From assembly GCF_988242995.1 (NCBI RefSeq), contig NZ_OZ547043.1: a stretch of DNA of 64,000 nucleotides. The stretch is one strand, 5' to 3'. Of the stretch, positions 48,001 through 51,000 are shown one piece after another (positions within the stretch are counted from its first letter, which is position 1; every line of letters starts with the position of its first letter). Position numbers: made by a program.

Positions 48001-51000
48001 AAGAGAAGGGGCTGGTGACGCCGCCGATGCGTAGCGAAAATGGTTATCGAACCTACACGCAGCAGCATCTCAACGAACTGACCTTACTGCGCCAGGCGCG
48101 CCAGGTGGGCTTTAACCTGGAAGAGAGCGGCGAACTGGTGAATCTGTTTAACGACCCGCAGCGTCACAGCGCCGATGTAAAACGGCGCACCCTGGAGAAA
48201 GTGGCGGAGATCGAACGACACATTGAGGAGCTGCAATCCATGCGCAACCAGCTGTTGGCGCTGGCGAATGCCTGCCCTGGCGATGACAGCGCCGACTGCC
48301 CGATTATCGAAAATCTCTCCGGCTGCTGTCATCATCGGGCGGGGTGAAAATCAGTTAATCCCCGTTTGCACCGAAAGAATATGCTGCAAACTTTCTACCA
48401 TTATGCGCCCCGATTGAAATAAGCCTTCCTGGATTTCATTGTTAACATTCACAGCGTGAACCAGGGAGGCTAATAACACCACTTGCAAGAAGGCAAAAAT
48501 AAACGCACCGATAATCATAATATGCGTCAGGGGGATTTTCCTTTGCTCTTTCATTTTAAATAACCCACAAACTGACCTTCCTTCATTAAGGCGACTTTTC
48601 CCGTGTGGTGATAAACAATGACGTTATAAAGACCTGACTGATAAACAGTGGCATCTTTATTGTCTTCATCAATTGCACATAATGAATCATTGAGATAAGC
48701 AAAGTTCTTACTGCTCATTCTAAAGGTCATGCCAAATCCTTTATAAATAGATTTTTTAGCGGCCTGGGCATGTTGTGCGGCTTCTGCATTTTTAAATGCC
48801 TGCGCTTCTGATGCACTTAAAATAGCCGCCTGACGCTGTTGTTCTGCGAGATAACAGGTGTCATGGCTGACGCCCTGCGCCTGGCAATCTGCGATGCGGG
48901 AAGTGGGTGAACTACAGCCAGCCAGTAATATAACCGCCAGCAGGGAAAACGATTTAATGGAGCTATTCATCATTGTTAACCTTAAATAATGTACGGAAAA
49001 TTGCGAATAAGAAATTGCTGTTAAAATTAGAACGAATATCCCACGCCGACACCCGCACCGAAATCAGATTGTGTATCCGCAGAAATACCTGCTTTAAGTA
49101 CCGTATGCGTTCCGGCATTAAAAGATGTTCCTACAGACACCGCAGATTCACCGTTGTACGTTCCCGCTCCCGCTGACACCATCATCAAGTCACCGGTTTT
49201 CACCTGTGGTTGTGAGGCGATAGCGATGGCAGATGCAGTTCCCGCATTGGCTTCTTTACGATTGTCCTCAACTTCGTTTTTCAGAGAATCGAAATGGTTA
49301 TTGAGCGTGTTAATTTGTTGGCTGTTATCTGCGACCCGTTTTTGCGTGTTGGTTAACTGTTGCTGCGTTTGTGCGGAATCTTGTCTCAGACTTTCAATTT
49401 GCTCATGTGCCTGGACAGACTTCTGCGCCAGACTTTGCATTTGTTTATCGTATTGAGCCCTTTCTTTTTGCTGTTGTGCTGCCACATCGGTTGTCAGTGC
49501 ATTCATTTTCTGCCCTTGTTCCGTGGCAGTGCGCTGATTAGCCTCATTTTGAGCCGCCAGTCTGGCATTAATCATCTCCTGATAATGCGCAGTATTTTGC
49601 GTATCTCCAGTCGCGGCGAGCGTTTTTTGTGTGGCTACGATCTGCGCCTGTTGCTCTGTAATTTGCGTTTGCTGGGCATCAGTTACCGCAGACTGTCGGG
49701 CGTTGATCATGCTCTGATAACGGGCGGTTGTCTGTACATCACCTGTAGCGGCAACGGTTTTTTGTCCTGCGTCAGGATCTGTCTGGACAGTGGGAGTCTG
49801 AGTGGTATCAGGTGTTTCAGAAGGGATGTAGTGATGTTCAGTCAAATAGGTATACGCAGCGGGGCTGTTGTCTGTGCGTTCTAAAAAGCGGGTAATCTTC
49901 TGCTCAATCTCCGATTGCGACATGCCAGAGTTAATGGCTGAAAGCTCTGTTGCCGCCGCTTCAATGGTATCACCAGCTAAAACAACAGGGCTGGATGTTG
50001 CTGAAATTATGAGTGCCAGTAAAGCTACGTTTACAGTTTTCATTCATTTTCTCTTGTTCAAAATAAGTCGCATTAATGTTTCTATAAGAAACAAATAATA
50101 TTGTTTTAAGAAATAAACTGCGTTGCAATTTAATCGAAATCTACGCCGCCATTTGTGTGATGTAAAGCGCATTTTTGTCTGGTGTAAGCGTAAACACAAC
50201 CAATAAGAAACAAAAAATGTTTCTTATATAAATAAAATCGAAAATCATTTTGTGCTCTTTCAATGTAAAAAAGAGTAAAGACTTGTTTTGATAAGCGAAA
50301 TAAATTCTGTTTCTGGACTAAACGTGAACCGGTTTCTGATGTGTGCTAAAATGCGTTTCTTTGATAAATCTCAATTTTTAAGAGGTTTACGCCAGGCAGG
50401 AAAATTTAAATGAATGAATTTGAGAAGATTTTTAATGAAATGAATCTGGACCGGGCATTGCTACCGATCCTTTTTCGTTCGAACCGGTCAACAGTGTGGA
50501 AATATTTAAGTGGCGATAGTACGGCTCCTGCCTCAGCTATGTCACTGATTATGCTGTTGCAGTTAATCCAGAAACGAAACCCCGATCTGTTAGCCGAATG
50601 GTTAACGCTTTCTGATTTCACCATTCCGCCAGAAGTTTACCTGGACCAGCCTGATTACTGGAAAGGGTGGGTGTATACGCAACACAAGGTCAATAAAAAC
50701 GTCCTGGAATATCTAAAAAAACATTATCCGGATGAAGACCAAAAAAACATGAATAAAGGTAGTGACGAGTAATTTGCCAATGCCAGTTAATATAGCGGAG
50801 GCGGCCTACGATTCGGGCGCAGACTTCCAGGCATGATAAGACGCGCCCGCGCCGCATCAGGCATCAGCGCATAACCGCCGGATGCGGCGTAAACGCCTTA
50901 TCCGGCCTACAATTCGGGCATATTTTGTAGGCATGAAAAGACGCATCAGCGTCGCATCAGGCGATGACCGCACGGATAATCAGCGTTATCCCTTCTATCG

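What the first reader, a model, noticed from the sequence alone, without database searches (positions are those of the whole stretch)
48348..50956. Accessory islet between cueR and ybbJ: short trimeric-autotransporter-like protein plus lipoprotein
In K-12, as I recall, cueR and ybbJ are adjacent and convergent. Here ~2.6 kb lies between them. A 338-aa protein combines a signal peptide, a Q/A-rich coiled-coil stalk and a YadA-type C-terminal anchor (...GAGVGVGYSF), and is unusually short for a trimeric autotransporter. It is followed on the same strand by a lipobox lipoprotein (reminiscent of the lipoprotein partner that assists SadA display in Salmonella) and a small membrane ORF, with a divergent 120-aa ORF upstream.
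Basis: partly seen in the sequence, partly recalled or inferred. Interest (0 to 1): 0.55.

Follow-up and report, generated by a model that had tools for sequence, protein, structure and literature searches.

The report
Known E. coli islet OI-29: autotransporter module
The 2.6-kb insert between cueR and ybbJ is the already described O-island 29 of E. coli O157:H7. Its 338-residue gene has the sequence of an outer-membrane trimeric autotransporter, yet the same gene was published in 2018 as the flagellar transcription factor "GmrA".

Summary
In K-12 the cueR and ybbJ stop codons abut. Here exactly 2,609 bp (48348-50956) lie between them.

- **Contents:** a 338-aa protein with a signal peptide and a full-length YadA anchor (PF03895, E=6e-12); a 140-aa lipoprotein; a 67-aa single-pass membrane ORF overlapping it by 4 bp; a divergent 120-aa ORF; and a REP element.
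- **Not new:** this is O-island 29 / S-loop 43 of O157:H7, present in about a quarter of complete E. coli genomes and at the same site in contigs carrying alleles that NCBI names from E. marmotae and E. ruysiae, and in E. whittamii.
- **Conflict with the literature:** mapping the published primers shows that the 338-aa gene is z0639, named "GmrA" and described as a transcriptional activator of fliA. I found no DNA-binding domain in it. The island's real HTH-family protein is the 120-aa ORF (z0640).
- **Lipoprotein:** it is not a SadB homologue in sequence, fold or sorting signal. Its relatives nevertheless sit directly downstream of YadA-anchor genes in about eight enterobacterial genera, so a functional link is likely.

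Best reading: a "headless", length-variable trimeric autotransporter module with its own regulator. The ligand is unknown, and the reported motility effect is probably indirect.

The parts
48348..50956 (.). Accessory islet, equivalent to O-island 29 / S-loop 43 of O157:H7; 2,609 bp absent from K-12
   Evidence: K-12 has 0 bp between cueR and ybbJ. The OI-29 deletion primers of Yang 2018 map to 48310-48347 and 50966-51004. The islet is 94.6% identical to the O157 Sakai locus.
49027..50043 (-). [not shown]
   Evidence: Pfam YadA_anchor E=6.1e-12. PDB anchor hits. The gmrA deletion arms flank exactly this ORF. The cloning primers encode MKTVNVAL... and ...GVGYSF.
49975..50043 (-). Predicted Sec signal peptide (residues 1-23, MKTVNVALLALIISATSSPVVLA|GD)
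   Evidence: The hydrophobic core has a Kyte-Doolittle (11-residue window) value of 2.6. No other hydrophobic segment follows. The signal-peptide pattern is kept in all alleles, including a 36%-identical orthologue. No dedicated signal-peptide predictor was available.
49492..49767 (-). Two tandem ~46-residue stalk cassettes (QKTVAATGDVQ..ARYQSMINAR..), residues 93-184
   Evidence: 26 of 46 residues are identical between the copies. Other alleles carry 2-4 copies plus an extra ~120-aa block.
49030..49209 (-). YadA-type membrane anchor (residues 279-338), ending in a C-terminal Phe
   Evidence: It is the most conserved part of the family.
48551..48973 (-). [not shown]
   Evidence: Alignment with invariant C20 and near-invariant C30 and C40. 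AF2 model with residues 73-140 at pLDDT above 90. The start codon lies 53 nt after the autotransporter stop.
48351..48554 (-). 67-aa single-pass membrane ORF, start overlapping the lipoprotein stop by 4 bp (ATGA)
   Evidence: Kyte-Doolittle (19-residue window) value of 2.65 at residues 14-32. Conserved with the same 4-bp overlap in Escherichia and Pseudocitrobacter, local jackhmmer E=1e-25 to 1e-30. RefSeq annotates it.
50410..50772 (+). [not shown]
   Evidence: The window protein itself gives only MqsA-HTH E=0.12. Distant family members hit HTH_3 at 3.8e-4, HTH_26 at 4.5e-4, MqsA at 3e-5 and Xre-like-HTH at 7e-5. A homologue is divergent from the autotransporter gene in Escherichia, Pseudocitrobacter, Yersinia and Rahnella, and divergent from the lipoprotein gene in Serratia silvae, which has no autotransporter.
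50044..50409 (.). 366-bp AT-rich (30% G+C) divergent control region with AGAAACA/TGTTTCT palindromes (50077-50093, 50203-50227)
   Evidence: No function has been shown.
50830..50907 (-). REP/BIME element at the right edge of the islet
   Evidence: Rfam naRNA4 (RF02564), 71.9 bits against a gathering score of 59.5. It explains the ~20 extra BLAST places per genome.
47940..48347 (+). cueR (left flank)
   Evidence: 95.6% identical to K-12.
50957..51415 (-). ybbJ (right flank; its last ~9 codons differ from K-12)

Best explanation
The islet is the known O-island 29. It encodes a small surface-protein module.

**The 338-aa protein.** It is most likely a type Vc (trimeric) autotransporter. The expected pathway is Sec export using residues 1-23, then BAM-dependent assembly of three C-terminal four-stranded anchors into one 12-stranded barrel, through which an acidic, Q/A/T-rich, largely helical passenger is displayed. 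The passenger has a conserved ~50-residue N-terminal region and a variable number of stalk cassettes. It has none of the classical head domains.

**The neighbours.**
- The lipoprotein downstream is probably co-transcribed. It is predicted to go to the outer membrane (Ser at +2).
- The 67-aa inner-membrane protein is translationally coupled to the lipoprotein.
- Both are probably envelope partners of the autotransporter (assembly, stabilisation or tethering). This is inferred from conserved synteny only.

**What is shown and what is inferred.**

The ligand is unknown. The motility phenotype published for this gene is, on this reading, an indirect consequence of an envelope protein and not of promoter binding.
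For: **Autotransporter identity**
- YadA_anchor E=6.1e-12 over the full model. Anchor homology to AtaA and Hia, and to EmaA, Vomp and BimA autotransporter models.
- The protein ends in ...GYSF.
- An N-terminal signal-peptide-like segment is the only hydrophobic stretch. It is conserved in function even at 36% identity.

**Against a DNA-binding role**
- The mature protein has pI 4.9 and net charge -12.7.
- No DNA-binding domain appears in Pfam or NCBIfam. Only weak coiled-coil-type hits occur: TMF_DNA_bd E=0.08, SMC E=1e-5, and DndD, JetC and LmuB arms.

**Family behaviour**
- Alleles of 338-586 aa differ by whole stalk cassettes. The E. whittamii allele lacks the N-terminal region, while the anchor is nearly invariant. 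This is typical of surface fibres.

**Identity with the published gene**
- The published primers map exactly onto the ORF.

**Conserved neighbourhood**
- Lipoprotein homologues lie immediately downstream of a YadA-anchor ORF in Escherichia, Pseudocitrobacter, Enterobacter, Phytobacter, UBA5654, Yersinia, Rahnella and Lelliottia, in different genomic contexts.
- The 67-aa ORF keeps its 4-bp overlap.

**Earlier annotations agree**
- 'Saa-like', 'AT-2' and 'YadA family autotransporter adhesin'.
Against: - Yang et al. 2018 report that the gene product shifts the fliA promoter in EMSA, enriches it 7.75-fold in ChIP-qPCR, and is needed for fliA/fliC expression and motility in several pathotypes.
- The same paper found no HeLa or Caco-2 adherence defect for the OI-29 deletion.
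- No head or ligand-binding domain is recognisable.
- A simple hydrophobic heptad test on the stalk was not significant: 356 of 2,000 shuffles reached the observed value.
- No trimer model could be computed.
- The lipoprotein family also occurs without a neighbouring autotransporter in Klebsiella grimontii, Raoultella, Erwinia, Pluralibacter and Serratia, so a dedicated helper role is not obligatory.
- Export was judged from sequence rules, not from a dedicated predictor or an experiment.
Confidence: 0.8

Rival explanations
1. As published: the 338-aa protein (GmrA) is a cytoplasmic, laterally acquired transcriptional activator. It binds the fliA promoter directly and so switches on class III flagellar genes. 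The autotransporter-like features would be irrelevant or vestigial.
For: - EMSA with competition, ChIP-qPCR (7.75-fold), epistasis with fliA, and complementation with the gene alone.
- The same motility phenotype in eight strains, and increased motility of K-12 carrying the gene (summarised in the review read).
Against: - Signal peptide plus a full-length, highly conserved YadA anchor ending in Phe.
- No DNA-binding domain found. The mature protein is acidic, pI 4.9.
- Cassette-type length variation of the supposed regulator.
- The primers suggest both biochemical assays used non-native forms. This is my inference. For pET-28a the ORF, including its signal peptide, was cloned BamHI-XhoI, so a vector-encoded N-terminal tag would bury the signal peptide. 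The 3xFLAG tag is fused directly after the C-terminal Phe, which is normally the outer-membrane targeting signal.
- The 'DNA-binding domain' was a CDD prediction. It plausibly reflects coiled-coil matches such as TMF_DNA_bd or SMC. I could not see their figure.
Confidence: 0.07
2. The autotransporter assignment is right, but the lipoprotein and the 67-aa protein are not its helpers. They would be independent envelope proteins that merely travel with it. One example: the lipoprotein could be a periplasmic inhibitor or binding protein with a PliC/MliC-like barrel.
For: - The lipoprotein family also occurs alone in several genera.
- The third small ORF is a different protein in Rahnella and Serratia, and in Pantoea.
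Against: - Immediate same-strand adjacency to YadA-anchor genes in about eight genera and in different contexts. This is far more than chance, given the few such genes per genome.
Confidence: 0.3
3. Dual life: most of the protein is exported as an autotransporter. A non-exported fraction, an internal-start product (for example from Met41), or the mRNA itself acts on fliA expression.
For: This would reconcile the genetics with the sequence. Complementation needs only the ORF plus ~300 bp upstream.
Against: No evidence exists for an internal start or for a regulatory RNA. Nothing in the passenger resembles a DNA-binding fold.
Confidence: 0.05

Closest known systems
O-island 29 / S-loop 43 of E. 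coli O157:H7 (z0638, z0639 = gmrA, z0640; ECs0548 'Saa-like protein'; Ec042-0536 'AT-2' in EAEC 042)
   Same: Same locus, same four genes, same flanks. The DNA is 94.6% identical to O157 Sakai and 99.5% identical to strains such as MS 69-1. The published primers map onto it.
   Different: Only allelic differences. The 67-aa ORF was not among the three genes considered in the 2018 paper. The published function (transcription factor) conflicts with the sequence-based assignment.
SadA-SadB of Salmonella (trimeric autotransporter plus trimeric export lipoprotein; PMC3953254)
   Same: An autotransporter and a small lipoprotein adjacent on one strand. The lipoprotein has a lipid anchor, an N-terminal helix (weak Lpp/OprI alanine-zipper hit, E=0.016) and a C-terminal beta domain.
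   Different: - The beta domain is a small 8-stranded barrel, not a MATH-like sandwich.
- Ser at +2 rather than Asp, so outer-membrane rather than inner-membrane sorting is predicted.
- The gene is downstream, not upstream.
- 140 aa versus a SadB of about 24 kDa.
Other E. coli trimeric autotransporters (UpaG/EhaG, Saa, Eib)
   Same: YadA-type anchor, signal peptide, fibrous passenger.
   Different: - No YadA head, neck or stalk motifs detected (the precomputed Pfam lists only PF03895).
- The PDB search found no match to anything other than anchors, so none to the EibD stalk.
- Phage-borne YadA-anchor proteins share only 28-42% identity over the C-terminal part.
Short, largely coiled-coil autotransporters such as Neisseria NadA or Haemophilus ducreyi DsrA (from my own knowledge, not tested here)
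   Same: Small size, and a passenger made mostly of helical stalk with a minimal N-terminal tip.
   Different: No detectable sequence relationship outside the anchor. Function here is unknown.
AtaA-TpgA (Acinetobacter) and other autotransporter helper proteins surveyed by Dorison et al. 2026 (bioRxiv 10.64898/2026.01.22.700529)
   Same: The idea of a periplasmic or lipoprotein partner encoded next to the autotransporter.
   Different: No BamE or OmpA-like domain here. That survey required a YadA head domain, so headless proteins such as this one were outside its data set.

Membership tests
Trimeric autotransporter (type Vc secretion) | C-terminal YadA-like membrane anchor. To my knowledge this is the one domain common to all members. 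| tested here: met
   PF03895 E=6.1e-12, residues 279-338, model positions 1-60 of 60. AtaA and Hia anchors E=2.6e-7 to 1.5e-5.
Trimeric autotransporter (type Vc secretion) | N-terminal Sec signal peptide | tested here: met
   MK + hydrophobic core + VLA|G. It is the only hydrophobic segment and is conserved across alleles. Rule-based only; no dedicated predictor was available.
Trimeric autotransporter (type Vc secretion) | C-terminal aromatic residue (beta-barrel targeting signal) | tested here: met
   The protein ends in GVGYSF. The last residue is Phe in all Escherichia alleles and Trp in the Pseudocitrobacter orthologue.
Trimeric autotransporter (type Vc secretion) | Coiled-coil stalk leading into the anchor | tested here: inconclusive
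   Many weak coiled-coil-type hits over residues ~100-270. The Vomp C-terminal model spans residues 111-335. However, the hydrophobic heptad periodicity was not above shuffles, and no structure model was made for this protein.
Trimeric autotransporter (type Vc secretion) | Recognised head or neck domains | tested here: not met
   None appear in Pfam or NCBIfam. The protein is 'headless'. This is not a family-defining feature.
Trimeric autotransporter (type Vc secretion) | Trimerisation, outer-membrane location, surface display, adhesion | not testable with these tools
   The only experimental datum is that the OI-29 deletion shows no HeLa or Caco-2 adherence defect.
Transcription factor 'GmrA' (as published) | A DNA-binding domain and cytoplasmic location | tested here: not met
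   There is no DNA-binding family above noise. The best hit is TMF_DNA_bd E=0.08, a coiled-coil match, plus SMC-type coiled-coil hits. The signal peptide and anchor predict export. Actual DNA binding was not testable here.
SadB-type autotransporter export lipoprotein | Homology to SadB/YajI (sequence or MATH-like beta-sandwich fold) | tested here: not met
   [not shown]
SadB-type autotransporter export lipoprotein | Inner-membrane retention (Asp at +2) and a position upstream of the adhesin gene | tested here: not met
   The mature N-terminus is C-S-S. The gene lies 53 nt downstream of the autotransporter gene.
SadB-type autotransporter export lipoprotein | Conserved operon-like linkage to a trimeric autotransporter | tested here: met
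   Immediately downstream of a YadA-anchor ORF in about eight genera. It also occurs alone in about six species.
XRE/Cro-type HTH regulators (for the 120-aa ORF) | Helix-turn-helix DNA-binding domain | tested here: inconclusive
   - The window protein gives only MqsA-HTH E=0.12.
- The AF2 model has low confidence, pLDDT 59.8.
- The best PDB hits are Xre-like antitoxins, not significant.
- Distant members of the same family do reach HTH_3 at 3.8e-4, HTH_26 at 4.5e-4, MqsA at 3e-5 and Xre-like-HTH at 7e-5.
MliC/PliC lysozyme inhibitors (for the lipoprotein) | Family profile and motifs (SxSGAxY, xxKG) | tested here: not met
   [not shown]

The most novel reading that the evidence does not exclude
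Probability: 0.2. Interest if true: 0.65.

Novelty: already known. Interest (0 to 1): 0.45.

Why it matters
The locus itself is ordinary and already catalogued. It matters for two reasons.

1. **A literature conflict.** A gene that reviews now list as a horizontally acquired flagellar transcription factor (GmrA) has every sequence hallmark of an outer-membrane trimeric autotransporter. Its neighbour z0640 is the HTH-family protein. If the sequence reading is right, the mechanism in the literature needs revisiting. The real link between this surface protein and motility is then an open and easily testable question.

2. **A possible third kind of helper.** The conserved autotransporter-lipoprotein-small membrane protein arrangement across about eight enterobacterial genera is a candidate accessory system for type Vc secretion, alongside SadB and TpgA. 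It lies in a class of headless proteins that a recent global survey excluded by design.

Tried and rejected
- **Lysozyme-inhibitor (MliC/PliC) membership: fold resemblance only.** No Pfam hit, and hhalign aligns only the signal peptide.
- **Heptad periodicity of the stalk: not significant**. I therefore do not claim the coiled coil as shown.
- **Defence-system reading: rejected.** PADLOC gives only weak SMC-arm coiled-coil hits.
- **Prophage remnant or Eib-like reading: rejected.** PHROG and phage hits cover the C-terminal stalk and anchor only, at 28-42% identity, and there is no EibD stalk match.
- **Promoter and terminator scans:** the promoter count was no more than the shuffles give (3 found against a mean of 4.6). 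Terminator-like sites were more numerous than in shuffles (9 against 3.1), but none clearly separates the genes.
- **Literature search for a characterisation of this protein as an adhesin under another name:** nothing found in the held library.
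Full report
**1.

ORF listing places the genes as follows:

| Feature | Coordinates | Strand |
|---|---|---|
| cueR | 47940-48347 | + |
| 67-aa ORF | 48351-48554 | - |
| 140-aa lipobox ORF | 48551-48973 | - |
| 338-aa ORF | 49027-50043 | - |
| 120-aa ORF | 50410-50772 | + |
| ybbJ | 50957-51415 | - |

- In K-12 MG1655 the cueR and ybbJ stop codons are adjacent, with 0 bp between them.
- G+C drops from about 0.58 in the flanks to 0.32-0.48 in the islet.
- The last ~9 codons of ybbJ differ from K-12.
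- The right end of the islet (about 50800-50956) is a REP/BIME element (Rfam naRNA4, 71.9 bits). This is why every E. coli genome gives about 20 short extra matches.

**2. The 338-aa protein looks like a trimeric autotransporter**

- Pfam gives YadA_anchor at E=6.1e-12 over the whole 60-position model, residues 279-338.
- The PDB sequence search finds only autotransporter anchors: AtaA at 2.6e-7 and Hia at 1.6e-6.
- NCBIfam's best hits are the C-termini of EmaA, Vomp and BimA, all far below their whole-protein cut-offs.
- The protein starts MKTVNVALLALIISATSSPVVLA|GD, which is its only hydrophobic segment. It ends ...GVGYSF.
- The mature part has pI 4.9, net charge about -13 and no cysteine.
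- No head, neck or other passenger domain is recognised.
- Residues ~100-270 attract many weak coiled-coil-type matches: SMC, ATG16, TMF_DNA_bd, and DndD, JetC and LmuB arms.
- My simple heptad test was not significant. The coiled coil is therefore likely but not shown.
- Residues 93-184 are two ~46-residue cassettes, 26 of 46 identical.

**3. The islet is already known**

- It is present, covering at least 80% of the query, in 1,260-1,378 of 5,426 complete E. coli genomes. RefSeq annotates a 'YadA family autotransporter adhesin' plus three hypothetical proteins.
- The EAEC 042 genome paper lists Ec042-0536 as one of two 'AT-2' proteins, with no clue to its function.
- Ogura et al. 2007 list ECs0548 in S-loop 43 as a 'Saa-like protein'.
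- Yang et al. 2018 describe 'OI-29, a 2,643-bp island that contains z0638, z0639 (gmrA) and z0640'.

**4. Which gene is gmrA?**

I mapped the paper's supplementary primers.
- On O157 Sakai, the gmrA deletion arms lie at 2173-2210 and 3228-3266. They exactly flank the YadA-anchor ORF at 2211-3227.
- In the window, the corresponding arms are 48989-49026 and 50044-50082.
- The cloning primer starts ATGAAAACTGTAAACGTAGCTTTA (MKTVNVAL). The 3xFLAG primer ends in the codons for ...GVGYSF.
- So the published 'transcriptional activator GmrA' is the 338-aa signal-peptide plus YadA-anchor protein. z0638 is the lipoprotein and z0640 is the 120-aa ORF.

The paper reports the following:
- reduced motility and reduced fliA/fliC expression in the mutant;
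- complementation by the gene alone;
- an EMSA shift and 7.75-fold ChIP enrichment of PfliA;
- no adherence defect of the island deletion.

Its 'DNA-binding domain' was a CDD prediction shown in a figure I cannot see. Later reviews repeat the assignment, and the one checked for the term does not mention a YadA anchor.

I found no DNA-binding family above noise. A plausible source of the CDD call is a coiled-coil match such as TMF_DNA_bd (E=0.08) or SMC. This is my inference.

The primers also imply that the assays used non-native forms (inference):
- The pET-28a construct carries the whole ORF behind a vector N-terminal tag, so the signal peptide would be internal.
- The FLAG tag sits directly after the C-terminal Phe.

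**5. The family behaves like a surface fibre**

- Homologues all carry PF03895 and come in lengths of 338, 345, 415, 457-480, 497, 530 and 577-586 aa. Per the names NCBI gives them, they come from E. coli, E. marmotae, E. ruysiae, E. whittamii and cryptic clades.
- The alignment shows whole-cassette insertions and deletions in the passenger. One allele lacks the N-terminal region. The anchor is nearly invariant.
- Contigs encoding the 459- and 480-aa alleles (named by NCBI from E. marmotae and E. ruysiae), and the E. whittamii locus, have the same four genes at the same cueR|ybbJ site. Ancestral presence with losses therefore seems more parsimonious than the four independent gains proposed in the paper.

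**6. The neighbours**

*Lipoprotein.* Its family is small (53 hits).
- It keeps the lipobox (C20 invariant), a near-invariant Cys pair (C30, C40) and a C-terminal domain with invariant Y111, G114, I119, Y121 and K126.
- AF2 gives a long helix (residues 37-70) followed by an 8-stranded barrel with pLDDT above 90.
- There is no profile-level relationship to MliC.
- SadB differs in being an inner-membrane lipoprotein (Asp at +2), encoded upstream, with nine heptads and a MATH-like sandwich.

*Synteny.* A scan of one genome per species found 33 loci. In a local HMM analysis:
- Lipoprotein homologues lie directly downstream of a YadA-anchor ORF in Escherichia, Pseudocitrobacter, Enterobacter, Phytobacter, UBA5654, Yersinia, Rahnella and Lelliottia. 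The Lelliottia homologue is a 153-aa variant matching only the N-terminal part. The genomic contexts are unrelated.
- They occur alone in Klebsiella grimontii, Raoultella, Erwinia, Pluralibacter, Phytobacter diazotrophicus and Serratia silvae.

*67-aa ORF.* It has one transmembrane segment and is conserved with its ATGA overlap in Escherichia and Pseudocitrobacter.

- It belongs to a very small family: 23 representatives among 1.84 billion.
- Distant members reach significant HTH_3, HTH_26, MqsA-HTH and Xre-like-HTH scores.
- The window protein itself reaches only E=0.12.

**7. Mechanism and verdict**

Most likely (about 0.8 for the core), this is a four-gene envelope module:
- a headless, length-variable type Vc autotransporter;
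- an outer-membrane lipoprotein and a small inner-membrane protein that probably act with it;
- a divergent HTH regulator.

Export, trimerisation, surface display, the helper role and the ligand are inferred, not shown.

The published transcription-factor mechanism is hard to reconcile with the sequence (I give it about 0.07). The motility phenotype may well be real but indirect.

As an object the finding is already known. Its remaining interest lies in the conflict with the literature and in the conserved accessory genes, which a recent helper-protein survey could not have seen because it required a YadA head domain.

Noticed in passing
window 22373-47943: Directly left of cueR lies an intact type I secretion adhesin locus: a TolC-like gene (22373-23728), a 6,924-aa ORF (23831-44605; RefSeq name 'BapA-related adhesin SiiEA'), an ABC transporter (44609-46771) and a HlyD-type adaptor (46768-47943). 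The HlyD stop overlaps the cueR start. cueR is thus flanked on both sides by accessory surface-protein loci. The EAEC 042 paper says the substrate gene is frameshifted in 042 and O157.
   Followed up: partly
[not shown]
   Followed up: partly
window 50077-50093 and 50203-50227: The AT-rich divergent region between the autotransporter gene and z0640 contains a perfect 10-bp inverted repeat (ATAAGAAACA-n5-TGTTTCTTAT) and a second TGTTTCT-ATA-AGAAACA palindrome 119 bp away. They are candidate operator sites for the HTH protein. They are only partly conserved within Escherichia and were not found in the other genera.
   Followed up: partly
window 50957-50990 versus K-12 (L007 4402-4435): The 3' end of ybbJ (its last ~9 codons) differs from K-12, while the rest of the gene is ~95% identical. 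The K-12 junction therefore lies inside the end of ybbJ, consistent with a deletion or replacement event.
   Followed up: no
L003 801-4532 (Pseudocitrobacter faecalis): Here the module carries two tandem YadA-anchor genes (633 aa and ~588-608 aa) before the lipoprotein and the 64-aa ORF. It lies next to a large serine recombinase gene, suggesting a mobile context.
   Followed up: no
L022, L024, L026-L029, L031-L034, L036, L039: Short (~63-69 aa) lipoproteins in Pseudomonas, Aeromonas, Buttiauxella, Atlantibacter and Silvania share only the N-terminal part of the lipoprotein: the lipobox plus the C-x9-C 'CEAQGISRDTCYLAEQNRQ' helix. This part therefore looks like a separate, widespread module.
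   Followed up: no
window 50830-50907: The REP element at the islet's right edge matches Rfam naRNA4 above the gathering score (71.9 against 59.5 bits). It is responsible for the ~20 spurious BLAST places per E. coli genome.
   Followed up: yes
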